Virus record (IMG/VR): IMGVR_UViG_3300044856_000241
Coordinates: 32,001-96,000 of that record
Direction: 5' to 3' (one strand)
DNA length: 64,000 bases
Source: a virus
Lineage: Duplodnaviria; Caudoviricetes
The notes beneath the pieces are model-generated. The model was not told the DNA's origin. It saw only the letters and a program-made list of their open reading frames with translations, and did no database searches. Below are positions 24,246 to 36,812 of the stretch, piece by piece (the stretch's first letter is position 1; every line of letters starts with the position of its first letter). Made by a program: the position numbers and the translations under genes.

Positions 24246-25469
24246 TTACAGCTCGTCATCATCTTCAACTACTTCTTCATCAAACAGATCGACATCTTCT
24301 GCCTCCTCATCATCAGAAACAAGTGGTTTAACAATCATGTCCTCTTCTTTGTAAACCGTGTCTTCTCTGCCTTTCATAAACCCTCTCGCTGGTTTAACAA
24401 ACTGATATTCACGAATTCGATCACCGTAAGCACTTCCACCAAGGTCTTTTCTAATGTCATCAAGAGTAATAAGTCCGAACTTAATATCCTCTTTCTGCTC
24501 ATCGGTAAGCATGTCCTCTGTGATTTCTACCCGCTGTGCGCCATTGAGCATGTTGACAATTACTCCATACTCTTTAAATGACTCGTCATCATCCTCGAAC
24601 ATGAATTTATGTTTTACACGCTCCGCCCATTTCTGAGACTTCTCATCATCTCCGATTGGAATAGCAATCGTTACAGGAACAGGAAGATTCTCTTTGCGGT
24701 TGTTGTCGTACTGCATCATGTACCCATTGACATAATATTTGTGCTTCTCATCTGCGCTCATATCGTCAAGACTTTCATGATTGAAGATGATATTTAATGT
24801 AGCCGTGGAAGATTGTTCAGCATTTGGTGCTGCAAGATAGATACGTGTCGGCACGTATGATTCATAGAATCTCTGATTTTTATCAGAGTAAGAATATTCT
24901 CCATTACCTTTAATGTAGAATAATGAGTCTTTGTATTTGTCACTTTCAATAACTTTTTTGATGAAATCTACGAAATCCCATTCAGAAATAAACTCATGTC
25001 GTTTCTTTTTGCTTTTCTCAAGAGCATCTGTAATTTCATCTTTTGATGTAAGTTCAACTTTTGCAAGTTCTTCATCAGTTGCTTCTCCACCTTCATGGAT
25101 TTTATCTGCTAATTTCTGCAGTTCAAATCTTCTATTCGGTTTCTCAAGATCAACAATGAATTTTTTGAATTCTGCAATCTCTGCAATTTTCGGAGATGTA
25201 AGTCTATCCTTAAATGGAATCTGGATTGACTGACCTTTTACTCTGTTGCCATTTTCATCTACAGTTGATTTAGTAAAACTGTAAATATCACCATGACCAT
25301 CCGCGAAGGCTCCTGCCTGAACAGAAAGCATGTGACGATTATCACCGCATGTTACATTAAAAAGTAATGTTTTTCTTTTCCAGCCAGATGGATAGGTTTT
25401 CTCCTCATACGGCTTAAATTTGTCGCTCTCTTTCGAGATACTAAGTTTTCCTGTCATTTCAAAATTCAT
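24246..25469 (-). CDS. Putative single-stranded DNA-binding protein
   Basis: Beta-rich OB-like sequence, very acidic C-terminal tail, adjacent to the Sak4-like gene. Confidence 0.55.
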   Translation of the reverse strand: MNFEMTGKLSISKESDKFKPYEEKTYPSGWKRKTLLFNVTCGDNRHMLSVQAGAFADGHGDIYSFTKSTVDENGNRVKGQSIQIPFKDRLTSPKIAEIAEFKKFIVDLEKPNRRFELQKLADKIHEGGEATDEELAKVELTSKDEITDALEKSKKKRHEFISEWDFVDFIKKVIESDKYKDSLFYIKGNGEYSYSDKNQRFYESYVPTRIYLAAPNAEQSSTATLNIIFNHESLDDMSADEKHKYYVNGYMMQYDNNRKENLPVPVTIAIPIGDDEKSQKWAERVKHKFMFEDDDESFKEYGVIVNMLNGAQRVEITEDMLTDEQKEDIKFGLITLDDIRKDLGGSAYGDRIREYQFVKPARGFMKGREDTVYKEEDMIVKPLVSDDEEAEDVDLFDEEVVEDDDEL

Positions 25470-26014: not shown

Positions 26015-26648
26015 ATATTTTTATTCTCTATTTAGTTTTATAAGTTTGGAATTATTGGCTGAATTGCCAAGTGAGTTAATTATTAAGAAAATTTCTGATG
26101 TCATCCATCATTTTATCTGATTCATCTAACAGATATCTATAAGTCTCGTTGTCGTCATAATACTCAAAATAAGGTATTGGTTTGTCATTCTCATCACACA
26201 TCCAACCAAGTTCCGAATAACCATCGAAGTATACAGATACATGCTTGCCATTGTGATTAATCCAAAATCTAATGATTGCTCCTGCAAACGGCGGAATAAT
26301 TTTCACATCCCATTCTTTGTCAAAATGCAGTGCAGGTAACTCATTAGCCCATTTTCTATATTCATGAAACTCTTCTGCTTTTGCAATTGTTAGTATTTTG
26401 TTCACATTTACCATTACGTCTTCCATTAATAGATTCTCCTTCGTTTTTTGGAGTGCGTTCATTTCCACACTCCAATTGGACATTCTTCTTCCTCAGCATT
26501 ACCTGTAGAAGCGAGGTATGTTCCTTGCCATTATATTCTCCGAAGAGTTTCAGGCAATACGTCCATTGGTTGACTGGTATTTTACAATCAGCCTTCACCT
26601 TTGTATTTTCAGCATCTCAGCTTTTCTACTACTTTCACCTCGTTTTAC

Positions 26649-26717
26649 AAGACACACTTCCGGTATCCCATCCGGTTAATTTATTATGTCGAAATAATAA
26701 TTTGCTGTATGTGTCTT
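26649..26717 (-). ncRNA. ACAGCAA-motif hairpin RNA unit A
   Basis: AAGACACA/TGTGTCTT stem followed by TACAGCAA. Confidence 0.75.
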
Positions 26718-26725
26718 TCTTATCC

Positions 26726-26779
26726 TAGATACATTTTTCTTTCGATGCTTGGAAATTAATAATTGCTGTGTTGTATCTA
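26726..26779 (-). ncRNA. ACAGCAA-motif hairpin RNA unit B
   Basis: TAGATACA/TGTATCTA stem followed by ACACAGCAA. Confidence 0.75.
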
Positions 26780-26793
26780 TATCTATATATTCT

Positions 26794-28314
26794 CTACGCC
26801 ACCAGATCTTTTACCGCATTCTCAACTGGTGCGTATCTTTCAGAATTTAATTGCTCCAGTAAACACTCAAATGGATCTGTACTGTTACTCAATACCATTT
26901 TCACAATTGCAGGACTGAAACCACTTACAAGTGCTACACCAGCCTCATTCTCTTTTACCGGAATTGTGCCAGTACGACTCATGATATTCCAGAATACTAA
27001 TCTTGGAAGTTTATATCCATGAGCTTCATATCTATCAGCCAGTTCTTCGAATAATCTCTTATCAGTACGTCCAGAAGTCATACGATCAAATTCTAAATCT
27101 GAAAGTACCAGTACATTCTGTGGCATATCATCCTGAGTCATCTCATTCCTGATCGCTGTCTGGAGAATCAGATCAAATGTTGCTTCAATATTTGTATTTG
27201 TCATCTCACAATGATTCAGCGCAATCTCAATTTTCTCACGCAATGAATCGGCATTGCTAAAATCAACAATCTGCGGGTGACTACTAAACGTAATATATGT
27301 ATCTTTGAACTGTCCAGAACTTCTCTCTGCAAAGTAAATGGCTAATGCATTTGCCACACTAAGAGCTGTGACATTCGTACCACCAATTCTTGAAGTCATA
27401 CTTCCTGATCCATCAGCTACACAAATTGTATTTCCTGTTCCGCTAACGTAATCAGGCAATGCTTTCCAAAGCTGTTCAAGTGTCGGATCATCAACAGGTG
27501 ACAAGTTCCATCTACTTGAGCCATACTTATGTACAATATCATGCGGGAATAAAACACCGGCATTGATTTTTGTTTCGCCTTTTTCTAACTTATTCAAGTA
27601 TTCTCTACGTCTTTCCTCATCATTTCGTAAGAAAGCATTGTTGTAAATTAGATTTGCTCTTGACGGAACAGCTGCATAATCAATTTTATCCCACTGTTTT
27701 GCAGACATTTTAACTTCAACCACATTCAGGTACGCACGGAGCTCGGATAACATTTTTCTATATTGTCTGTCTGTGAAAATGATGTTATCCATGATGATAT
27801 GTGCCAATCGTTTTGTCTCTTTTGAAGAGGTGTTAGCACTTGGCATCCATTTAGCAAGAAGCGAAATCGGTTTACTCTGCTTCATATTTACACCATCTTC
27901 TAAGAGCTGATGTACTACTACTTCACACACATCATCTTTTAAATCAGTGTCCAATAAACACCATAAATCATCCCAACGTCCATATTCAGGAACCAGTTTA
28001 ATTACTTCCTTGGCAATATCCTGATGATTCTCTGCAAGATATTTTATACAAGTTCTAAACAGTCTTCTCTCGCCAATTCCCTCTCTACAATCACGGCAAT
28101 AAAATAACCATTTCATTGCCAAAATTTTGTCCTCATAGAACGCTTTTACGAACTTTTCAACGATTTTTTCTTCGCTCATGTTCCTCATAGATGATACTGA
28201 AAAGTTTAAATCAAGAAGTTCTTTACCTGATGTTCTATAACCAAGAGCACCATTCTCAGTAACTGAATAATTGAAGTCATCATTCAGTGTTTCTTTTAAA
28301 TTTTTCATAAACAT
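26794..28314 (-). CDS. DUF2828-family protein: helical TROVE-like N-terminus plus vWA domain (Ro60-like architecture)
   Basis: TENGA, RD.R.G.GER, AKWMP, MIDAS DGSGSM, TN, SDLEFD, FWN, VSGFS. Confidence 0.85.
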   Translation of the reverse strand: MFMKNLKETLNDDFNYSVTENGALGYRTSGKELLDLNFSVSSMRNMSEEKIVEKFVKAFYEDKILAMKWLFYCRDCREGIGERRLFRTCIKYLAENHQDIAKEVIKLVPEYGRWDDLWCLLDTDLKDDVCEVVVHQLLEDGVNMKQSKPISLLAKWMPSANTSSKETKRLAHIIMDNIIFTDRQYRKMLSELRAYLNVVEVKMSAKQWDKIDYAAVPSRANLIYNNAFLRNDEERRREYLNKLEKGETKINAGVLFPHDIVHKYGSSRWNLSPVDDPTLEQLWKALPDYVSGTGNTICVADGSGSMTSRIGGTNVTALSVANALAIYFAERSSGQFKDTYITFSSHPQIVDFSNADSLREKIEIALNHCEMTNTNIEATFDLILQTAIRNEMTQDDMPQNVLVLSDLEFDRMTSGRTDKRLFEELADRYEAHGYKLPRLVFWNIMSRTGTIPVKENEAGVALVSGFSPAIVKMVLSNSTDPFECLLEQLNSERYAPVENAVKDLVA

Positions 28315-28361
28315 AATTCTTTTTCTCCTTTTGAATCAAAATTAGTAGTAACTTTGATTCC

Positions 28362-28418
28362 TAGACGGCATGGAAAATAGATTAACAGTCTATACCAAAA
28401 AATTGCTGTAGCCGTCTA
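28362..28418 (-). ncRNA. ACAGCAA unit C with Asn(GUU) anticodon-loop mimic
   Basis: TAGACGGC/GCCGTCTA stem, TACAGCAA, inner ATAGA-CTGTTAA-TCTAT. Confidence 0.8.
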
Positions 28419-28431
28419 AAGAATCATTTAC

Positions 28432-28488
28432 AAGATAGCTATATGTTAATATTCTCCGCTTGAATTAAATATTTGCTGTAACTATCTT
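28432..28488 (-). ncRNA. ACAGCAA unit D
   Basis: AAGATAG/CTATCTT stem followed by TTACAGCAA. Confidence 0.75.
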
Positions 28489-28491
28489 CAA

Positions 28492-28607
28492 CGACAGGAA
28501 CAGGACTCGAACCTGTATCAATGCCTGGACGTGGAATAAATATCGCTGTTAATGTCTATTACAAGACATATTTTTTTCACCGTTTTAACCAATTAAACTA
28601 TCCCGTC
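28492..28607 (-). ncRNA. tRNA-like unit E with ACAGCGA module in place of the anticodon loop
   Basis: Acceptor GACGGGA/TCCTGTC, D-arm, T-arm ACAGG-TTCGAGT-CCTGT; insert ATGTCT/AGACAT followed by TAACAGCGA. Confidence 0.8.
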
Positions 28608-28684
28608 ATGTGAGTATTCTCATACGGCAATACAAGAATACTCAGCTTGCAACTTATTAACTTACTTCCCACAAAGAAAGGAGC

Positions 28685-28743
28685 TAGACGGTTTTGGTTA
28701 GTAAATTAAAAGTCTTCTCCAATAAGTTTGCTGTATCCGCCTA
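28685..28743 (-). ncRNA. ACAGCAA unit F with Lys(UUU)-like loop
   Basis: TAGGCGG/CCGTCTA stem (G-U pair only on the minus strand), TACAGCAA, inner GACTTTTAAT. Confidence 0.75.
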
Positions 28744-28748
28744 TATAC

Positions 28749-28813
28749 AAGACACTTAGCCACTTGGCATTTGATTTGCAATCAAATTGTTCAATGTTGC
28801 TGTTTTGTGTCTT
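28749..28813 (-). ncRNA. ACAGCAA unit G with Cys(GCA) anticodon-loop mimic
   Basis: AAGACAC/GTGTCTT stem, ACAGCAA, inner ATTTGA-TTGCAAA-TCAAAT. Confidence 0.8.
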
Positions 28814-28815
28814 AA

Positions 28816-28934
28816 TGGAGATGGAGAGATTCGAACTCCCGACAAATGGTTACCCTTAATTAATATTTGCTGTTGATGTCTTATACAAAACACACATAAT
28901 ATTTCCATCGCTCTACCAACTGAGCTACATCTCC
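28816..28934 (-). ncRNA. tRNA-like unit H with ACAGCAA module in the anticodon arm
   Basis: GGAGATG/CATCTCC acceptor, TAGCTCAGTTGGTAGAGC D-arm, GGGAG-TTCGAAT-CTCTC T-arm; insert ...AAGACATCAACAGCAA. Confidence 0.82.
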
Positions 28935-29012
28935 GTATGAATTCCTTCCTATTATAATAAGGAAGAAACTCATGTTATTTGTAACAATACGTTTTCCACA
29001 GAAAGGAGATCC

Positions 29013-29072
29013 TAGACGGTATCTGGGTTGCAAATTAAAAGTTGTTCCAAAGAAAATTGCTGTTACCGCCTA
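29013..29072 (-). ncRNA. ACAGCAA unit I (paralog of F) with Lys(UUU)-like loop
   Basis: TAGGCGGTA/TACCGTCTA stem, ACAGCAA, inner CAACTTTTAATTTG. Confidence 0.75.
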
Positions 29073-29085
29073 TTTTGTTGTGGAA

Positions 29086-29256
29086 TCACCGGATCTGGGT
29101 TCGAACCAGAATCTGCATCGTCCATTAAATTAAAATTTGCTGTAAGCGGATGACTATGTATCAAAAAGAAAAGAGAGGATTTTATGAAAGTATATGTTAT
29201 TTTTTCTATCCGCTTTTTAATTGTGATGCTGTTTTACCAATTGAAACTATCCAGTG
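29086..29256 (-). ncRNA. tRNA-like unit J with ACAGCAA module and long pyrimidine-rich loop
   Basis: CACTGGA/TCCGGTG acceptor, D-arm, GCATC/GATGC stem, AAGCGGAT/ATCCGCTT then ACAGCAA, TCTGG-TTCGAAC-CCAGA T-arm. Confidence 0.8.
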
Positions 29257-29260
29257 TAAA

Positions 29261-29383
29261 TTGTAGGGGCTGGATTCGAACCAGCGAAACCATAGGTGTC
29301 AGATTTAGAGTCTGATTTGCTGTTAGTGATTATACCTAATCACATTTTTCTTCTGATGCGTTTAGCCACTTCGCTACCCTACA
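29261..29383 (-). tRNA. Tyr-type tRNA body with CUA (amber) anticodon and a 41-nt ACAGCAA insertion (unit K)
   Basis: TGTAGGG/CCCTACA acceptor, TAGCGAAGTGGCTAAACGC D-arm, TCAGA-CTCTAAA-TCTGA anticodon arm, long variable arm, GCTGG-TTCGAAT-CCAGC T-arm. Confidence 0.78.
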
Positions 29384-29391
29384 ATGTAATC

Positions 29392-29447
29392 GAGACACTT
29401 TATTATCATCCGTATTATAATATTTTAACATTTGCTGTTAGTGTCTC
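29392..29447 (-). ncRNA. ACAGCAA unit L
   Basis: GAGACACT/AGTGTCTC stem followed by AACAGCAA. Confidence 0.75.
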
Positions 29448-29455
29448 ATCTTTAC

Positions 29456-29521
29456 TAGATTCCATATTTATGTATTCTCTATTAATGAATTAATTTCTTG
29501 AATATTTGCTGTTGGAATCTA
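29456..29521 (-). ncRNA. ACAGCAA unit M
   Basis: TAGATTCCA/TGGAATCTA stem followed by ACAGCAA. Confidence 0.75.
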
Positions 29522-29528
29522 AATGTTC

Positions 29529-29594
29529 AAGACGATATCATATTTGTTTGCCAGTATTATCTTTAATATTTTGTAAAATTGCTGTGATCGTCTT
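29529..29594 (-). ncRNA. ACAGCAA unit N
   Basis: AAGACGAT/ATCGTCTT stem followed by CACAGCAA. Confidence 0.75.
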
Positions 29595-29601
29595 ATTTAT
29601 A

Positions 29602-30494: not shown

Positions 30495-31400
30495 TTACTC
30501 TTCTACACTTTTTAATAACAACTCGTCTGAACTAAATCCGGCTGCTCCAGGATGTCCACCACCACCATATTTCATGGCAATTTCAGAACAATTTACTTTT
30601 GTAGAACGTAATCCGTAAGTCCATCGCTTACCGTTGAATGAAAATCCAATGAACATATCATATTTATCCTGATCAACAGATGTAAAATTATCACTTCCAG
30701 CCATTGCCATATTAATTGCGAAACATTTATGTCCTTCGAATTCTGTTTCGAATCCAACTGACTCACAATACTCTTTTGACCAGTTATCACGATATTTAAG
30801 AAGATTTTTGCCATTCACAATGATATCTACTGTACCAATCTCATTGTTATATAGCTTATTCCAAATGTTATCAGCATCAGTCGGATCTGTATCTTCCAGT
30901 GTTAATCCAATTTCAAACGCTTTTGTCCTTTCCCCATATTTAAATTTCCAAACATCATAATCTGCTACATATTTTGTAAACATCGGTGCATCATAGCACA
31001 TATCTTCCTTGAACGGTACACATACTAAGCTATTCTCTTCTGTGATATGTACAAGCATATGTTTGAAGTAACAATATGTCAGCATACAACCGGCAATACC
31101 ATCATATCTAAGACCAGGAATCTGATGTGGAAATCCGTCATATCGTTTAATTGCACTGATATGATGATCAATCCAAGTAACATTGTTTGTGATTTTTAGT
31201 AACTCTTCCATCTCTTCTGGCATAATAGAATAATCAACAATGAACACCTGTTCATCTTTTTTGATTTTCTCAAACGGGAATTCCATTCCGTAGTTAATCA
31301 TGATATATTCTTCATCATAATCATCTAATTTAGGTGCTAACTGATGCACCCAGAAAGCACTAAGTTTGCCGTCGTGATCGACATGATACATACATTTCAT
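30495..31400 (-). CDS. DHH/DHHA1 phosphoesterase (NrnB-like)
   Basis: YH.D.DG, VD, IDHH, GGGGHPGAAGF. Confidence 0.88.
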   Translation of the reverse strand: MKCMYHVDHDGKLSAFWVHQLAPKLDDYDEEYIMINYGMEFPFEKIKKDEQVFIVDYSIMPEEMEELLKITNNVTWIDHHISAIKRYDGFPHQIPGLRYDGIAGCMLTYCYFKHMLVHITEENSLVCVPFKEDMCYDAPMFTKYVADYDVWKFKYGERTKAFEIGLTLEDTDPTDADNIWNKLYNNEIGTVDIIVNGKNLLKYRDNWSKEYCESVGFETEFEGHKCFAINMAMAGSDNFTSVDQDKYDMFIGFSFNGKRWTYGLRSTKVNCSEIAMKYGGGGHPGAAGFSSDELLLKSVEE

Positions 31401-31423
31401 ATTTCTGTATTCTCCTTCTAAAT

Positions 31424-32780
31424 TTATACATTTGTATGTTTCATATATGAGATAAGTTCATAAGGATTATTCTTAATCTCTCCGTTGATAACCATATTAA
31501 GTAAATGATTTAACCAATATCCAACCATTTTCCCAGAACATCCCATATATTTCATAACATCATTGCCATTTACTGCTAAATCCTTTAACGAAAAGCACTG
31601 TTCTTCACTTAATATATTCTCCAGAAGTTCTTCGATTTTCTGAATTTTACCAAGTCTTTTTTCTTTATATTCTGGATTTTGTGCTGAGACATCAGCTTTA
31701 CGAAGCTCTAATAATCGTCTAAATTGTTCTTCTCCAATACGATTCAACCAACGTTTGATATATTTTCCTCCGACCTCGAATGTTGAATCATGATAATATA
31801 CAAGCTGCACAACCTTTTCTCTGGTATCATTGTCAAAACGAAGTCGTTTCATAATCTTGTCTGTCATATCTGCGCTTACTTTTCCATGACCTTTGAAATG
31901 TCCAACACCATTCTCATCTTCTGTATAACAGTGTGGTTTACCGATATCATGAAAGAATACTGCCAGGCATGTGATTAAGTCATCTGAATCACAATACTGT
32001 ATTGCATGAACTGTATGATTCCATACATTATTAACATGATACGGATTATTCTGCTCAAATCCGAACATATCTTTAATCTCCGGAATAAACTGGGCAAGTA
32101 CACCATCGTACAAAACCATCTGAATACAAAAATCTGGTGCAACAATCATTTTACAAAACTCACTATTAATTCTCTCAGTAGATGTATTCTCTAAACTTTT
32201 ATATAAATGACTTGCTTCATAACCTGCCTCAGCATCAATCACAAATTCTAACTGAGAAGCGAATCTCATTGCACGTAAAATTCGTAAGGCATCCTCGGTA
32301 AAGCGATCTTTTGCAACGCCAACACATCGAATAAAATGATCTTCAATGTCTTGCATTCCATTAAACGGATCAATTAATCCATCTTTTTCGTTATATGCCA
32401 TAGCATTAATGGTGAAATCCCGTCTGCTTAGATCTTCAATAAGATTGCTTGTGAACTCTACAGAATCAGGATGTCTTCCATCTGAATATTCTCCGTCCCT
32501 TCTGTACGTTGTGATTTCATACCCAACATTATCAATCATTACAGTGACCGTACCATGTTGAATACCGGTAGGAATTACTTTGTATCCTTTGCTTTCAAAA
32601 AGTGAAAAAATTTCATTTATTGTAACTGGCGTACAGATGTCCCAATCATGCACTGGTCTCCCCATAATACTGTCTCTTACACTGCCGCCTACGATGTAAG
32701 CCGTACTTCCGTATTTTCCGATTACTTTGAAAAATTTCTTTTACAGCTTCCGGAAGTTCAATTCTAATATCTTTACTCAT
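31424..32780 (-). CDS. cca: CCA tRNA nucleotidyltransferase with HD domain; +1 frameshift near 32730
   Basis: GGSVRD..DWD, DLSRRDFTINAMA, ED.LR.LR, HDIGK; N-terminus MSKDIRIELPEAVKEIF is in a different frame. Confidence 0.85.
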
Positions 32781-32862
32781 CAAAATTCACCTCGATCTCC
32801 GGTACTTAATGGAATATTACAATCTTTACAGAATCGTTCTTTTAATTTAGTTGAAACTTCCA

Positions 32863-33891
32863 TTAGATTTCTCCTCTCACGACTCGCTCATTCACATACA
32901 TTATAAATTCATTAATTCGCTTATAATCTGGTTTATCTGGAAGAGATGTGTTTTCTTTTGCATATTCAAATCTCTTCTCATATTCATTTAACAGATCATA
33001 AAATTCAGGGATTGGTTGTCTATTCTCATCTAAGTATTCTCCATTGCGGATACTCATCAGCAAGTCATGTTCATCTACTCTGTATGTAATAATTTCTTCA
33101 TTTTCCAGAATATCAATACACATCATATACAGTCTCAGCAAATGAGCCATATGTTTTCCTAATTTATCATGACTAATAGCTTTTTCATTACGTTTGCCAA
33201 TTTTGTTGTAGCTACTTACAATAGATTTCATTTCGTTCCACATACCAGCCCAGTCTCTTAATGGATAATGTTTTAAATTAATATCCATAAAAATTTCAGT
33301 CTCATATCCTTCCTGTACTGCTTTATCGATATATAAATTCACATCACTCTCATCATGTGGGAAATATCTGTTTTTGAAATCATATTTTGCATTTTGAATA
33401 CTTTTGAAAATATACTCTTCGTTCTGAGCCTGTCCGACTAAACGTGCTGCTTTATTCTGTAAACGTCTCAGCTGGCTTTGCGAATAACCTGCAAAAGAAT
33501 GAATGCAAATTTTTGATAAGAACATTTTCCTGTTATCTAATAATTCTTTTCCTATATCAGACAAATATAGATAATGCTCTGGTTTCGTTCCTAACAGCTC
33601 GATCGTGTTTGGATTATTAGAAGTCAATAACTTAACGATCTTATTGAAAGAATATACAGTTGTATCTGTTGGAACATCAACAACCTGTTCAAAATCGGTA
33701 CCTAAAAGAACTTCTGATTTACTGTTTAAAGCAACACTACGGATATCTAAGTCTGAATTAGGAGTTTCCATCCCGTATGCATGACTTCCGCCTAATGTCA
33801 ATAACATAATATTCTCTCCAAGATGTTCATCATTTCTCAAGAAATCATATTTCTCAGTTTTCAATTCTGATTTAATTTTATCAATTGTCAT
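32863..33891 (-). CDS. RlaP/YcgL-like nucleotidyltransferase
   Basis: GSHAYG...SDLD, NPN..ELL, KHMAHLLRL, IRNG. Confidence 0.8.
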   Translation of the reverse strand: MTIDKIKSELKTEKYDFLRNDEHLGENIMLLTLGGSHAYGMETPNSDLDIRSVALNSKSEVLLGTDFEQVVDVPTDTTVYSFNKIVKLLTSNNPNTIELLGTKPEHYLYLSDIGKELLDNRKMFLSKICIHSFAGYSQSQLRRLQNKAARLVGQAQNEEYIFKSIQNAKYDFKNRYFPHDESDVNLYIDKAVQEGYETEIFMDINLKHYPLRDWAGMWNEMKSIVSSYNKIGKRNEKAISHDKLGKHMAHLLRLYMMCIDILENEEIITYRVDEHDLLMSIRNGEYLDENRQPIPEFYDLLNEYEKRFEYAKENTSLPDKPDYKRINEFIMYVNERVVRGEI

Positions 33892-34638: not shown

Positions 34639-34711
34639 TACGGGAGGCACGAGTCGAACGTGCCGCAACTGATTTATAAGATCAGCCCCATCACCGCTTG
34701 GGTACTCCCGC
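34639..34711 (-). tRNA. tRNA-Ile (UAU)
   Basis: GCGGGAG/CTCCCGT, CTGAT-CTTATAA-ATCAG, GCACG-TTCGACT-CGTGC; no encoded CCA. Confidence 0.8.
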
Positions 34712-34823
34712 TTATTGAATATCATCACAACAGCGACAATGTGCGAAACCAGAAAAAAATGAAGCGAAAGAAAGGATTTACTGCCGTGATAATATTCAAT
34801 TGCCAAAATATTTACTTGATTAA

Positions 34824-34896
34824 CGGGGCTAGTAGGATTTGAACCTACGAATACCACATTCAAAGTGTGGAGCCTTAACCGCTTGGCGATAGCCCT
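34824..34896 (-). tRNA. tRNA-Gln (UUG)
   Basis: GCCAAGCGGTTAAGGC D-arm, CCACA-CTTTGAA-TGTGG, GTAGG-TTCAAAT-CCTAC. Confidence 0.88.
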
Positions 34897-34902
34897 ATGG
34901 TT

Positions 34903-35059
34903 GCACCGAGAGCGGAGCTATGCACAACTCCCAATTGATTAACTTCATACGATACTTTCTTGTAGGTCTAATTTAAATTTTACATCCAAGTACTAGGATT
35001 ATCTCAGATGACAATATCCTCTCGTATTTAATTAAACAAATGTTGCATACTCTCGATGC
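34903..35059 (-). ncRNA. Unidentified ~157-nt structured RNA between tRNAs
   Basis: Closing stem GCATCGAGAG/CTCTCGGTGC, TATGCA/TGCATA, ATACGA/TCGTAT and internal hairpins. Confidence 0.5.
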
Positions 35060-35062
35060 TAA

Positions 35063-35135
35063 TACGCCCACCCAGAGTCGGACTGGGAATCGCTGTGTAT
35101 AAGACAGGTGCAACGTACCGCATCACCTTGGGCGC
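35063..35135 (-). tRNA. Degenerate tRNA-Ile (UAU)-like gene
   Basis: GCGCCCA/TGGGCGT, loop CTTATAC, T-loop TCCGACT (non-canonical), weak D-arm. Confidence 0.6.
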
Positions 35136-35497
35136 ATATTTGTGGTAGTTGTTTCTTCCTTATTATAGGGATGACTCGTTCCAACCCACCACGTAATAAC
35201 GAGTGTAAGTTTATATTTATTTATTTTCCATCAATTTACTAAAAACTCTGAATCAACAGCCAGATCATTGTTGGATAATATATAATATCTACTATAGAAA
35301 AAAGTAACTCTCTAAATCTATTAACTGAGAACTCTTCGCCTTTTTCTAATTTTGTAGCATATGAACTATAGTCGAAAATGTTAATAATACAACTTACTAC
35401 TTCAATAATTGACATAATAAGTGCAAAATTATTGTCTGCAAATCTCATTCCGAGTTTTGCATAGATAATTCCGAGAATTATGTAAATAATCCAACCA

Positions 35498-36812
35498 TTG
35501 AACTTCACACCGCTAAAGTGGTGTGATTCTTGGGAAATTATCTCTACTGAGATAATATTTACCAAGCTATCCCGATTGTTCCAACCGTTCTTATTTATGA
35601 TTATTAAGCTACTTCCAGTAGCCTTAATCCTTCGTTTAATATATTAATAGCAGCATTAATATCTCTATCATGATGTGTATTGCAACAAGGACAATCCCAT
35701 TCTCTAACATTAAGATTTTTTGTTTCCTTATTAACATAACCACATACATTACAAGTCTGTGAGCTTGCAAAAAACTTACCTACTTTTATAACTTTTCTAC
35801 CATACCAACCAACCTTATACTCTAATTGTCTTACAAATTCAGACCATGATACATCTGCAATAGACCTTGCAAGTTTATGATTTTTAATCATGTTTTTTAC
35901 TTGTAAATCTTCCAAACAAATCACATCATTATTTCTGATAATCTCTGTAGATAATTTCTGCAAGAAATCTTTTCTCTGATTTGCAATATGTTCTTGAAGT
36001 CTTGCAACTTTAATTCTTGCTTTGTTACGATTAGAACCACCTTTTGATTTTCGAGATAATTCTATTTGTAATTTAGCAAGCTTGTCCAATGACTTTTTGA
36101 GATATTTCGGATTCGGAATCATTTCTCCATCAGATGTTATACAAAACTCTTTAATACCTAAATCAATACCAACAGAATTTCCAGTTTTTTCCAATGGTTT
36201 CATTTCTACATCAGTACAGCATAGCGAAACATAATATTTTCCACTAGGCTCCTGTGATACGGTAGCATTTAATATTCTTCCTTGCGGAATTAATTTATTT
36301 TTAGTTTTTACCACTCCAAGTTTTGGTAATTTAATATGTCTTCCGCAATACTGAATATTATTATTTGTACATTTCGATTTATATGAATATCTATGTGTTT
36401 TCTTTGATTTAAATTTAGGATAACCGGTATGTTCTTTGAAGAATTTCTGATAAGCAGAATCTAAATCTCTAAGTGAAGATTGAAGAGCAGTGGAATCAAC
36501 TTCTTTTAACCATTCCAGTTCAGACTTAAGTTTTGTCATGTCTTTTGAACATTGTGTATATGAAAATGTTTCATTTTCTTTTTCATACATTTCAACTCTT
36601 TTTGCAAGATATGTATTATATACAAACCTACAACATCCAAAAGTCTTTGCTATTATTTCTCGTTGCTTTTTATTTGGATAAATTCTGTACTTATAAGCCT
36701 TTTCCACTACCTTCACCTCGCTTTCTTTCTAATTTATCACCTCATATGTATATTCTCCATTTGGTGTCGATTCATCTCACCACTGAAGTGGCGAGTGTTC
36801 TCACCTTTCTTC
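35498..36812 (-). mobile_element. Non-autonomous IS200/IS605-family (tnpB-only) element
   Basis: Left-end hairpin CTCGCCACTTCAGTGGTGAG, right-end hairpin TCACACCACTTTAGCGGTGTGA ending in TTCAA, inserted after TTTAT. Confidence 0.8.
35604..36716 (-). CDS. tnpB: RNA-guided endonuclease TnpB
   Basis: [12 protein letters not shown], RuvC GIDLG/EDL/DRDINAA, Zn finger CNVC..CPCC. Confidence 0.95.

What the first reader, a model, noticed from the sequence alone, without database searches (positions are those of the whole stretch)
29261..29383. Amber-suppressor tRNA with a duplicated anticodon-stem strand: possible protein-controlled switch
Seen: the D-arm TAGCGAAGTGGCTAAACGC and long variable arm are Firmicute tRNA-Tyr-like, but the loop is CTCTAAA (anticodon CUA, reads UAG). 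ATCAGA occurs twice (plus strand 29311-29316 and 29352-29357), flanking a 41-nt insert with the GTGATTA/TAATCAC stem and ACAGCAA. Deleting the insert yields a clean 82-nt tRNA(CUA). Either TCAGA copy can pair with TCTGA, giving two mutually exclusive folds, only one of which forms a canonical anticodon arm. Inference: either conditional amber suppression gated by DUF2828 binding, or a target-site duplication showing the module is mobile. Most genes here end normally at TAG, so global recoding is not indicated.
Basis: partly seen in the sequence, partly recalled or inferred. Interest (0 to 1): 0.85.

Follow-up and report, generated by a model that had tools for sequence, protein, structure and literature searches.

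The report
Two-state tRNA mimic with amber anticodon
The "interrupted amber-suppressor tRNA" is real in the sequence, but it is most likely one of 14 small partner RNAs of a phage Ro60-like protein: a tRNA look-alike that can show or hide an anticodon arm, not a working stop-codon suppressor.

Summary
Observation confirmed. On the minus strand (29261-29383) lies a tRNA-Tyr-like gene with a CUA loop and a 41-nt insert between two ATCAGA copies. Removing the insert gives a clean 82-nt tRNA.

It is not alone. It is one of 14 RNAs sharing a "7-bp helix + ACAGCAA" handle that flank a DUF2828 gene. The predicted fold of that protein matches Ro60. Three sister RNAs are also tRNA bodies carrying the handle in the anticodon arm. 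This scan had already noted the same handle/protein pair in at least 64 other genomes. I also found it in cultured Listeria, E. coli, Bacillus and Mycobacterium phages.

New here: in eight related lineages both copies of the 5' stem strand covary with the 3' strand, so two mutually exclusive helices are conserved. The anticodon is not conserved. Orthologues carry CUA, GUA, UAA, GAA or GGG, or have no anticodon loop.

TAG is an ordinary stop in this phage. I found no in-frame TAG, no RNA ligase and no splicing endonuclease.

Best reading (0.58): a Y-RNA-like tRNA mimic that toggles between showing and hiding an anticodon arm, probably on protein binding. A spliced or gated suppressor tRNA remains possible (about 0.2). 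A neutral target-site duplication is unlikely.

The parts
29261..29383 (-). Unit K: tRNA-Tyr-like body with handle module and CUA stem-loop (the finding)
   Evidence: ARAGORN intron mode; deleting 41 nt gives a canonical tRNA; fold z = -3.1
29352..29357 (-). ATCAGA copy 1 ('a'), at the normal position of the anticodon-stem 5' strand, just after nt 26
   Evidence: Sequence; complementary to 29299-29303; covaries in 8 lineages
29326..29343 (-). P1 hairpin (GTGATTA / GGTA loop / TAATCAC), the handle helix closed by a loop
   Evidence: the same helix closes the stand-alone units from outside
29317..29323 (-). ACAGCAA handle motif
   Evidence: 381 copies on the gene strand of the window segment plus 67 related loci, against 28-69 for permuted control words
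29311..29316 (-). ATCAGA copy 2 ('c'), 5' strand of the local anticodon-like hairpin
   Evidence: pairs in the minimum-energy fold
29304..29310 (-). 7-nt loop CTCTAAA; CUA at 29306-29308
   Evidence: one base (position 34) away from the Tyr loop CTGTAAA of orthologues L008 and L013
29299..29303 (-). 3' strand TCTGA ('b'), shared by both alternative helices
29269..29285 (-). T arm
   Evidence: three stem pairs differ on both sides in the 98%-identical relative L007, and pairing is kept
29086..29256 (-). Sister unit J: tRNA body with a 100-nt handle insert and no anticodon loop
28816..28934 (-). Sister unit H: tRNA body with a 48-55-nt handle insert
   Evidence: Rfam tRNA 53.8 bits
28491..28608 (-). 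Sister unit E: tRNA body with a handle insert (ACAGCGA variant)
29391..29597 (-). Three stand-alone handle units (helix - ACAGCAA - about 40 nt - helix)
28361..28815 (-). Four stand-alone handle units around unit E. Two display Asn- and Cys-type anticodon arms, one a weaker Lys-type arm, and one has no canonical anticodon-type arm
26794..28314 (-). DUF2828/DUF7788 protein (506 aa), Ro60 fold
   Evidence: Pfam; phrog_850 'RNA-binding protein', E 1e-141; AF2 model pLDDT 77; top 13 PDB matches are all Ro60/TROVE
26640..26785 (-). Two handle units just downstream of the protein gene
30495..33891 (-). Upstream tRNA-end / RNA-repair genes: DHH phosphoesterase, CCA-adding enzyme with HD domain, RlaP nucleotidyltransferase
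   Evidence: Pfam and PHROGs

Best explanation
Unit K is not a decoder. It is a Y-RNA-like partner RNA of the phage's Ro60-fold protein (DUF2828), built on a tRNA-Tyr-type body. Like its sister units E, H and J, it keeps the normal tRNA topology (free acceptor end, D and T arms). It carries the protein's 'handle', a 7-bp helix plus ACAGCAA, where the anticodon loop should be. K and its orthologues also keep a complete anticodon stem-loop, because the 13-16-nt linker after the handle holds a second copy of the stem's 5' strand.

The RNA therefore has two states. In state A (the minimum-energy fold) copy 2 pairs with the 3' strand and a canonical anticodon arm is displayed, as on many stand-alone units. 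In state B copy 1 pairs with the 3' strand. That restores the tRNA's own anticodon stem and turns copy 2 plus the loop into the single-stranded linker seen in E, H and J.

I infer that binding of the Ro60-like protein to handle and linker selects state B, so the anticodon arm is shown only on free RNA or at one step of a cycle. The displayed arm is a bait or mimic for a host factor that reads anticodon arms (an anticodon nuclease, another defence protein or a modification enzyme), as part of a counter-defence or tRNA-repair island. The CUA loop is a single-base wobble-position variant of the Tyr loop, not an adaptation for reading UAG.

Shown: the anatomy, the family, the Ro60 fold, the covariation, the variable anticodon and the absence of recoding. 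Inferred: protein binding, the switch and the bait role.
For: (1) K is one of 14 structured handle units, all on the minus strand at 26702-29585 around the DUF2828 gene. Four of them are tRNA bodies with the handle in the anticodon arm.
(2) The protein model's 13 best PDB matches are all Ro60/TROVE, over its full length, with probability 1.0.
(3) The handle and the protein co-occur in the 67 viral loci whose motif positions I listed. Handle-bearing tRNA-like units also turn up in the 80 metagenome and 80 genome loci. The pair also occurs in Listeria LMSP-25, E. coli phage heid, Bacillus Skywalker and Mycobacterium LeBron. In LeBron the handle closes a YrlA-type permuted tRNA domain.
(4) Eight K-type lineages keep both helices. 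Matched pairing is 4.9/5 (copy 1) and 4.5/5 (copy 2) against 3.4 across lineages. Shuffling the 3' strands among lineages reaches the observed totals in 2e-4 and 4e-4 of trials. State A is the MFE in all eight, and state B lies 0.2-7.3 kcal/mol higher.
(5) In state B, K's linker (13 nt) and 7-nt spacer are comparable to those of H and J (both 17-nt linkers).
(6) The anticodon drifts among orthologues: CUA, GUA, UAA, GAA, GGG, a loop with A33, an 8-nt loop, or none.
(7) Display of anticodon arms is general. 76 of 442 distinct units have a canonical arm after the handle, against 10 of 299 for control words. The commonest are Lys UUU (24), Asn GUU (10), Cys GCA (8) and Pro UGG (8). One unit reads Cys here and Phe in the 98%-identical relative.
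(8) TAG is a plain stop, and a canonical tRNA-Tyr(GUA) lies elsewhere in the genome.
(9) A Ro60-like protein sitting just upstream of the tRNA array of the Felixounavirus Bas63 counters the Ppl defence (bioRxiv 10.1101/2024.10.10.617714).
Against: Conservation of both helices is equally what a precursor/mature-tRNA pair would give. A bait with CUA matches no normal host tRNA. In some orthologues the D arm seems to change with the anticodon (Tyr-like with GUA, Leu-like with UAA), which hints at real tRNA identities. Several orthologues encode CCA and a CCA-adding enzyme is a neighbour, so these RNAs may be charged. Asn-type grafted units have no copy 1 at the canonical position, so the two-state design is not general. 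Bas63 gp130 acted from a plasmid without phage RNAs. The eight lineages are related, so the shuffle figures overstate independence.
Confidence: 0.58

Rival explanations
1. K is a true intron-containing suppressor pre-tRNA. The handle-bearing insert, which ends with copy 2, is cut out by an unknown endonuclease and the halves are joined by a host ligase such as RtcB. This gives an 82-nt tRNA(CUA), charged with Tyr or Leu, that reads UAG. Copy 2 holds the loop and 3' strand in shape in the precursor; copy 1 forms the mature stem.
For: Excision gives a perfect tRNA. The repeat makes the product the same wherever the cut falls. Covariation of both helices is explained directly: mature stem plus precursor stem. 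Copy 1 pairs better than copy 2 in four lineages (5/5 against 4/5). The ends are tRNA-like, CCA is encoded in orthologues and a CCA-adding enzyme lies nearby. The Listeria phage homologue lies about 1.3 kb from an annotated 'tRNA splicing ligase' gene.
Against: No group I/II intron or ribozyme match at E<=10. The genome has no splicing endonuclease, RtcB or Rnl-type ligase (the T4 Rnl1 test was uninformative). No sequence is conserved at the putative junctions apart from the handle. Sister units E, H and J carry the same insert but would leave no canonical anticodon loop. The same handle occurs on RNAs with no tRNA body. Anticodons differ among orthologues, including GAA on a long-variable-arm body and a loop without U33. 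There is no in-frame TAG, and 35 of 240 ORFs of at least 100 aa stop at TAG. No insert-free allele was found.
Confidence: 0.15
2. One reading: the unspliced RNA itself works as a suppressor tRNA in the fold with the local anticodon arm, and DUF2828 binding switches it on or off (conditional amber suppression).
For: Two conserved folds. The protein gene is adjacent. The free-RNA fold shows a canonical CUA arm on an otherwise intact tRNA body.
Against: The 41 nt would protrude between nt 26 and 27, at the D-stem/anticodon-stem junction. That region contacts 23S rRNA helix 69 on the ribosome (established structural knowledge, not tested here). There are no TAG-interrupted genes or read-through extensions to serve. 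CUA is limited to two near-identical phages. Orthologues with sense anticodons would be redundant with canonical phage tRNAs.
Confidence: 0.05
3. The repeat is a target-site duplication left by a mobile ACAGCAA module that inserted into a tRNA-Tyr gene. K is a decaying pseudo-tRNA, and the second fold has no function.
For: A direct repeat of 4-6 nt flanks the insert. The module occurs in many tRNA bodies. The arrays are recombination-prone: units are swapped between 98%-identical phages, and IS605/TnpB insertions lie inside the arrays of L007 and L341.
Against: A neutral duplication should decay. Instead both copies change together with the 3' strand, between W and L008 (two pairs flipped on all three strands) and within the L013/L351/L437 clade, which shares one body and one module. 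The T stem keeps pairing through three two-sided changes. The 14 units share only the handle and no near-identical copies exist. No empty site was found. The loop keeps its 7-nt canonical form in six of the eight lineages (L016 has A33, L032 an 8-nt loop).
Confidence: 0.1

Closest known systems
Bacterial and phage Y RNAs of the YrlA type with Ro60/Rsr (Rfam RF02553; Chen et al. 2014, PMC4201824; Thermus phage phiLo Ro60 with Yrl1/Yrl2, PMC12135203)
   Same: Small RNAs are encoded next to, and on the same strand as, a Ro60-fold protein. One module is a protein-binding helix with a conserved single-stranded motif; the other is a tRNA-like domain attached at the anticodon-stem position. There are several RNAs per locus, and RNA-repair genes lie nearby.
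   Different: The protein belongs to the DUF2828/DUF7788 families, not Pfam TROVE. The motif is ACAGCAA, not GNCGAA(N)G or CGAA. YrlA scores only 20.8 bits against a gathering score of 69, and that hit is an artefact spanning K's T arm and J's D arm. K has the opposite circular permutation: the acceptor end is open and the handle helix is capped. No described Y RNA has a duplicated stem strand or a full anticodon arm.
Classical amber-suppressor tRNA-Tyr (supF type) and phage-borne suppressor tRNAs of recoded phages (from my own knowledge: Borges et al. 2022)
   Same: Tyr-type class II body, discriminator A, and a CUA loop that differs from the Tyr GUA loop by one base at position 34.
   Different: The gene is interrupted by 41 nt. 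TAG is not recoded. CUA is not conserved. No splicing route is known.
tRNA introns (bacterial group I introns in the anticodon loop; archaeal bulge-helix-bulge introns at non-canonical sites)
   Same: An insert within the anticodon arm whose removal restores a canonical tRNA.
   Different: Forty-one nt is far too short for a group I intron, and no Rfam intron match was found. I saw no bulge-helix-bulge motif (judged by eye), and the genome has no splicing endonuclease. The insert is a protein-binding handle that is also found outside tRNAs.
Class I RNAs of dictyostelid amoebae (Rfam RF01414; Kjellin et al. 2021, PMC7919456), a lead from earlier notes of this scan
   Same: An RNA of about 60 nt closed by a short covarying 5'/3' stem, with an unpaired 11-nt motif next to the 5' strand. 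The invariant positions of that motif (T3, C6, C9, A10, A11) fit the phage consensus ..T.AC.GCAA.
   Different: The RF01414 model finds nothing in this array. No protein link has been shown. K itself is the permuted, tRNA-grafted form.
Riboswitch or attenuator-type two-state RNAs
   Same: Two mutually exclusive helices share one strand, and both are supported by covariation.
   Different: There is no expression platform or downstream gene control. The presumed effector is a protein and the output is display of an anticodon arm.

Membership tests
Functional (suppressor) tRNA | Cloverleaf with 7-bp acceptor stem, D arm, T arm with TTCGA loop, discriminator | tested here: met
   ARAGORN intron mode; T-stem pairing kept through two-sided changes in L007
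Functional (suppressor) tRNA | Uninterrupted anticodon arm, or an insert of a kind with a known removal pathway | tested here: not met
   41-nt insert; no intron or ribozyme family at E<=10; no RtcB, Rnl2-type ligase or splicing endonuclease in the 203.6-kb genome
Functional (suppressor) tRNA | Anticodon conserved among orthologues | tested here: not met
   CUA only in the window and in one 98%-identical relative (L007 = L078; also L340). Orthologues carry GUA, UAA, GAA, GGG, an A33 loop, an 8-nt loop or none
Functional (suppressor) tRNA | Codons to serve: in-frame TAG or read-through extensions | tested here: not met
   Every TAG between two long open segments that I inspected (10 of 14) is a gene boundary, nine followed by a ribosome-binding site and a start codon; the tenth lies in a plus-strand frame antisense to the minus-strand genes. 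The other four had short flanking segments (60-94 codons) and were not examined. Code-11 ORFs total 169 kb, summed over all six frames, in a 204-kb genome
Functional (suppressor) tRNA | Mature, aminoacylated RNA in vivo | not testable with these tools
Y RNA / YrlA (RF02553) | Encoded within a few kb of, and on the same strand as, a Ro60 protein | tested here: met
   K lies 950 nt upstream of the DUF2828 gene on the same strand. The protein has a Ro60 fold by Foldseek, but Pfam TROVE is not matched
Y RNA / YrlA (RF02553) | Match to the Rfam covariance model at its gathering score | tested here: not met
   20.8 bits against 69; the hit spans two adjacent units
Y RNA / YrlA (RF02553) | Ro-binding motif GNCGAA(N)G in the closing helix | tested here: not met
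   Replaced by helix + ACAGCAA
Y RNA / YrlA (RF02553) | tRNA-like domain joined to the protein-binding helix at the anticodon-stem position | tested here: met
   Met, but in the opposite circular permutation
ACAGCAA-handle RNAs (undescribed family, noted repeatedly in this scan) | 6-9-bp covarying helix, 0-3 nt, ACAGCAA, A/U-rich linker | tested here: met
   K: 7-bp helix, TA, ACAGCAA. 73% of 381 motif copies have a perfect 7-bp partner, against about 38% for control words
ACAGCAA-handle RNAs (undescribed family, noted repeatedly in this scan) | Clustered beside a DUF2828 gene on its strand | tested here: met
Dictyostelid Class I RNA (RF01414) | Match to the covariance model | tested here: not met
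   No hit in the array at E<=10
Mobile element with target-site duplication | Near-identical copies elsewhere, empty-site alleles, repeats free to decay | tested here: not met
   Units share only the handle; no insert-free allele in IMG/VR; repeats covary with the third strand
Two-state (switch) RNA | Two mutually exclusive helices, each supported by compensatory change | tested here: met
   Positions 1-3 of a:b and 2-3 of c:b show 2-5 standard pair types across 8 lineages. The energy gap is 0.2-7.3 kcal/mol. Lineages are related, so support is moderate
Two-state (switch) RNA | An effector that shifts the equilibrium | not testable with these tools
   Protein-RNA binding cannot be modelled or measured here

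The most novel reading that the evidence does not exclude
The ACAGCAA handle marks a new kind of phage tRNA intron or regulatory insert. K is a conditional suppressor or 'remoulded' tRNA whose anticodon arm becomes usable only after the Ro60-like protein remodels or helps excise the insert. The phage would then control read-through of UAG (15% of its stops), or mistranslation of host messages, at one stage of infection.
Probability: 0.12. Interest if true: 0.92.

Novelty: new variant of a known kind. Interest (0 to 1): 0.6.

Why it matters
Ro60/Y-RNA particles are known from animals to bacteria, but the purpose of their tRNA-like modules is an open question. Here a very widespread phage branch of that protein fold carries partner RNAs that are whole tRNA bodies or bare anticodon arms; it occurs in 705 cultured-phage records, including Felix O1-like, Listeria P100-like and mycobacteriophage cluster L phages.

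K-type units add direct comparative evidence that the anticodon arm is a regulated, switchable display whose 'anticodon' evolves fast, mostly at the wobble position. This points to a concrete and testable idea: the particles bait or monitor host factors that read anticodon arms, such as anticodon nucleases and other defences. A homologue in a Felix O1-like phage is already reported to defeat the Ppl defence.

For annotation, such genes should not be called suppressor tRNAs or taken as signs of stop-codon recoding.

Tried and rejected
- blastn of the whole array against cultured phages: no match. The RNAs are too divergent, so the protein search was used instead.
- Exact scan of IMG/VR for the 17-nt anticodon arm: only the near-identical contig, unrelated suppressor tRNAs and coding hits. 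No insert-free allele.
After filtering, only one ordinary tRNA-Tyr remained. Two scans were wasted.
- MAFFT alignment of the eight K-type units (A4) mis-registers the handle and the repeats. I therefore did not use the count of structure pairs or a covariance model, and tabulated the three strands by script instead.
- A general test for a 'copy 1' anywhere upstream of all 47 grafted units that carry an anticodon arm was not significant (15 against 13 in the control). The duplication holds only for units whose D arm is of the Tyr/Leu (class II) type, where copy 1 sits at the canonical position.
- Rejected as explanations: global TAG recoding; group I or bulge-helix-bulge intron; membership of YrlA; membership of dictyostelid Class I RNA; and the odd 'tRNA(cta)' of L014/L015 as a homologue of K (unrelated sequence, irregular anticodon arm).
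- The PF09511 search was uninformative, because its controls did not ring.
- The sigma-70 promoter scan was not above chance and the terminator count (3 against 1.5 expected) was only marginally above it, so transcript boundaries remain unknown.

Full report
**1. What is there**

Read on the minus strand, window 29261-29383 is a 123-nt tRNA-like gene.
- It has a 7-bp acceptor stem, a 3-bp D stem with an 11-nt loop, a 13-nt variable arm, a T arm with a TTCGAAT loop, and discriminator A.
- No CCA is encoded.
- Between nt 26 and the anticodon hairpin lie 41 extra nt. These are a first ATCAGA (29352-29357), a 7-nt A-rich spacer, a 7-bp hairpin (29326-29343), TA and ACAGCAA (29317-29323).
- A second ATCAGA follows (29311-29316), then the loop CTCTAAA and the 3' strand TCTGA.

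Default ARAGORN and Rfam at gathering score do not call the gene. ARAGORN in intron mode does. After in-silico deletion of the 41 nt, plain ARAGORN calls an 82-nt tRNA(cta).

**2. It is one of a family**

The same 1.3 kb holds three more tRNA bodies interrupted in the anticodon arm: 28491-28608, 28816-28934 (Rfam tRNA 53.8 bits) and 29086-29256.
- Every insert contains a hairpin followed by ACAGCAA (once ACAGCGA).
- Between these bodies lie stand-alone units in which the same helix closes the RNA from outside: helix, ACAGCAA, about 40 nt, helix.
- Across the 203.6-kb genome, the structured copies number 14. All are on the minus strand between 26702 and 29585: 12 upstream and 2 downstream of ORF 26794-28314.

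That ORF is a DUF2828/DUF7788 protein and matches phrog_850 'RNA-binding protein'. Its AlphaFold model (pLDDT 77) has only Ro60/TROVE structures as its 13 best PDB matches. These cover the full length at probability 1.0 and include the Ro60 of Thermus phage phiLo.

Upstream lie a DHH phosphoesterase, a CCA-adding enzyme with an HD domain, an RlaP nucleotidyltransferase and, further on, a Pth2 peptidyl-tRNA hydrolase.

**3. The pairing is conserved far beyond this phage**

- Homologues of the protein were fetched from 67 viral, 80 metagenome and 80 genome loci, mostly from human and animal gut and binned with Clostridia.
- In the 67 viral loci whose motif positions I listed, ACAGCAA clusters on the gene's strand just upstream and downstream of the gene.
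- In the window segment and the 67 viral loci, 73% of 381 motif copies have a perfect 7-bp partner for the preceding 7 nt. Control words give about 38%.
- The protein occurs in 705 cultured-phage records.
- Handle units lie beside it in Listeria phage LMSP-25 (three in the leader), E. coli Felixounavirus heid (four within the tRNA array), Bacillus phage Skywalker and Mycobacterium phage LeBron. In LeBron the handle closes a YrlA-style permuted tRNA domain.

Earlier notes of this scan report the same system in at least 64 genomes. No Rfam family matches. I found no paper describing the RNAs.

The grafted units of this window are the circular permutation of the LeBron/YrlA layout: the acceptor end is open and the handle helix is capped.

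**4. What is special about K**

In the sister units (clearest in H and J) the anticodon stem closes a large loop made of a short spacer, the capped handle helix, ACAGCAA and a 17-nt linker. K fits this pattern if copy 1 pairs with the 3' strand (state B; linker 13 nt). K's linker, however, contains a second copy of the 5' strand, so a local canonical anticodon arm can form instead (state A).

The same design, with different 5-mers, occurs in seven more lineages of units whose D arm is of the Tyr/Leu (class II) type. The table lists copy 1 / copy 2 / 3' strand and the loop for each lineage.

| Lineage | Copy 1 / copy 2 / 3' strand | Loop |
|---|---|---|
| L008 | AGAGA / AGAGA / TCTCT | Tyr (GUA) |
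| L013 | ATGGA / CTGGA / TCCAT | Tyr (GUA) |
| L351, L374, L423 | GTGGA / ACGGA / TCCGC | UAA |
| L437 | GCGGA / TCGGA / TCCGC | GAA |
| L016 | GCGGC / TCGGA / TCCGC | lacks U33 |
| L032 | ATAGA / ATAGA / TCTAT | 8 nt |
| L391 | AAAGA / GAAGA / TCTTT | GGG |

- Matched pairing is 4.9/5 for copy 1 and 4.5/5 for copy 2, against 3.4 between lineages.
- Shuffling the 3' strands among lineages reaches the observed totals in 2e-4 and 4e-4 of 100,000 trials.
- Within the L013/L351/L437 clade, which shares one acceptor stem and one handle helix, an A-to-G change in the 3' strand is matched in both copies.
- State A is the minimum-energy fold in all eight lineages. State B costs 0.2-7.3 kcal/mol more.

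Both helices therefore appear to be under selection. The lineages are related, so the figures are indicative rather than probabilities.

**5. Is it an amber suppressor?**

The evidence points against this.
- Code-11 ORFs of at least 100 aa sum to 169 kb (over all six frames, so they can overlap) in a 204-kb genome. Their stops are TAA 153, TGA 52 and TAG 35.
- Fourteen TAGs lie between two open segments of at least 60 codons. I inspected ten. All ten are ordinary gene ends or lie in a non-coding frame. Nine are followed by a Shine-Dalgarno sequence and a start codon. The tenth lies in a plus-strand frame antisense to the minus-strand genes. The other four had short flanking segments (60-94 codons) and were not examined.
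- The phage has a canonical tRNA-Tyr(GUA) elsewhere, unlike K in sequence.
- The genome has no RtcB, Rnl2-type ligase or tRNA-splicing endonuclease, and no intron or ribozyme family matches.
- CUA occurs only here and in one 98%-identical relative. In a 91%-identical relative this part of the array is replaced by an IS605/TnpB element.
- Among orthologues the loop differs mostly by single substitutions at positions 33-34. K's CUA is one base from the Tyr loop. Several orthologues have lost the arm altogether (L009, L030, L039, L414).

Display of anticodon arms is a property of the whole RNA family. Of 442 distinct units, 76 have a canonical 5-bp/7-nt arm after the handle, against 10 of 299 for control words. 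Lys UUU, Asn GUU, Cys GCA and Pro UGG are the most common, on covarying stems. One stand-alone unit reads Cys here and Phe in the 98% relative.

These patterns fit a displayed mimic better than a decoder.

**6. Is the repeat a target-site duplication?**

As a neutral relic, no. The copies co-vary with the third strand. The units share only the handle. No empty site was found. An origin by insertion or recombination cannot be excluded, because the arrays are clearly recombination-prone.

**7. Proposed mechanism**

- K is transcribed with the array.
- Its ends are made by the tRNA-processing enzymes and the phage CCA enzyme. This step is inferred; Chen et al. 2014 showed such processing for YrlA.
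- The free RNA sits in state A and shows a Tyr-type anticodon arm with C34.
- The Ro60-like protein binds the handle helix, ACAGCAA and the following single strand. Copy 2 and the loop are pulled out as linker, copy 1 closes the stem, and the RNA takes the architecture of units E, H and J (state B).
- The arm would serve as bait or mimic for a host factor that reads anticodon arms.

Two points support a conflict role: the neighbouring tRNA-end and repair genes, and the report that the Ro60-like gp130 of Felixounavirus Bas63, encoded directly upstream of its tRNA array, counters the Ppl defence. I did not test whether gp130 is in the same family. A Felixounavirus homologue of the window protein (35.7% identity) has that position.

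The main rival is a precursor/mature-tRNA pair. It explains the double covariation just as well. It is held down by the missing splicing machinery, by the sister units that would leave no anticodon loop, and by the drifting anticodon.

**8. Limits**

- There are no expression, binding or probing data.
- Transcript ends are unknown: the promoter scan was at chance level and the terminator count only marginally above it.
- The eight lineages are few and related.
- The bait target is speculative, and a CUA bait matches no normal tRNA.

Noticed in passing
window 28747-28815 (-) versus L007:3500-3570: The same stand-alone handle unit displays a Cys-type loop (TTGCAAA) here and a Phe-type loop (CTGAAAA) in a phage whose partner protein is 98% identical. 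The displayed anticodons turn over very fast.
   Followed up: partly
L008:3418, L009:3439, L013:3900-3962, L032:3901-3959, L036, L039, L056 and others (unit just upstream of the protein start): The commonest displayed arm is a tRNA-Lys(UUU) look-alike (GA-CTTTTAA-TC) on many different covarying stems: 24 of the 76 arms. tRNA-Lys is the classic target of PrrC-type anticodon nucleases (from my own knowledge).
   Followed up: partly
L341:1-560 and L007:1960-3380; window 35604-36716 (-): IS605-family TnpB elements sit inside the handle-RNA array of two close relatives, replacing units J and U4 (and K in L341). A TnpB gene also lies 6 kb upstream in this window, next to the tRNA-Ile/Gln genes.
   Followed up: partly
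L095 (Listeria phage LMSP-25) 2640-2990 and 5841-7052: A cultured P100-like Listeria phage has three handle units in the leader of its 'RNA-binding protein' gene, and an annotated tRNA-splicing ligase (RtcB) and an HD phosphohydrolase within 3 kb. This is a tractable system for experiments.
   Followed up: partly
L105 (Mycobacterium phage LeBron) 3950-4230: Downstream of gp53 'Ro-like RNA binding protein' lie three handle units. One (GCAGCAA) encloses a T arm, a closed acceptor hairpin and a D arm, which is the YrlA layout. This links the ACAGCAA family to published Y RNAs.
   Followed up: partly
L014:6167-6243, L015:6158-6234; many loci: Relatives carry odd tRNA-like genes that ARAGORN reports with 2- or 4-base anticodons, that is 6- or 8-nt anticodon loops ('tRNA-???'), and a 'tRNA(cta)' with an irregular anticodon arm. 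I did not examine whether those phages recode TAG.
   Followed up: no
window 34639-35136 (-): Two tRNA-Ile(UAU) genes flank a tRNA-Gln(UUG). The UAU anticodon would read the AUA codon directly, without lysidine modification (from my own knowledge), in an AT-rich (34% GC) phage.
   Followed up: no
window 24246-25469 (-): A 407-aa ORF between the AAA_24 ATPase gene and the handle-RNA locus has no Pfam or PHROG match.
   Followed up: no
window 29203-29306 (-): The weak Rfam YrlA hit (20.8 bits) is produced by K's T arm followed by J's D arm. Tandem tRNA-like genes imitate the permuted YrlA order. Chen et al. 2014 already warned about this false-positive mode.
   Followed up: yes
L013:3533-3658, L016:6487-6620, L351:3509-3639: In this clade the handle motif and linker can also pair with the long variable arm in the minimum-energy fold. 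This possible third conformation was not assessed.
   Followed up: no
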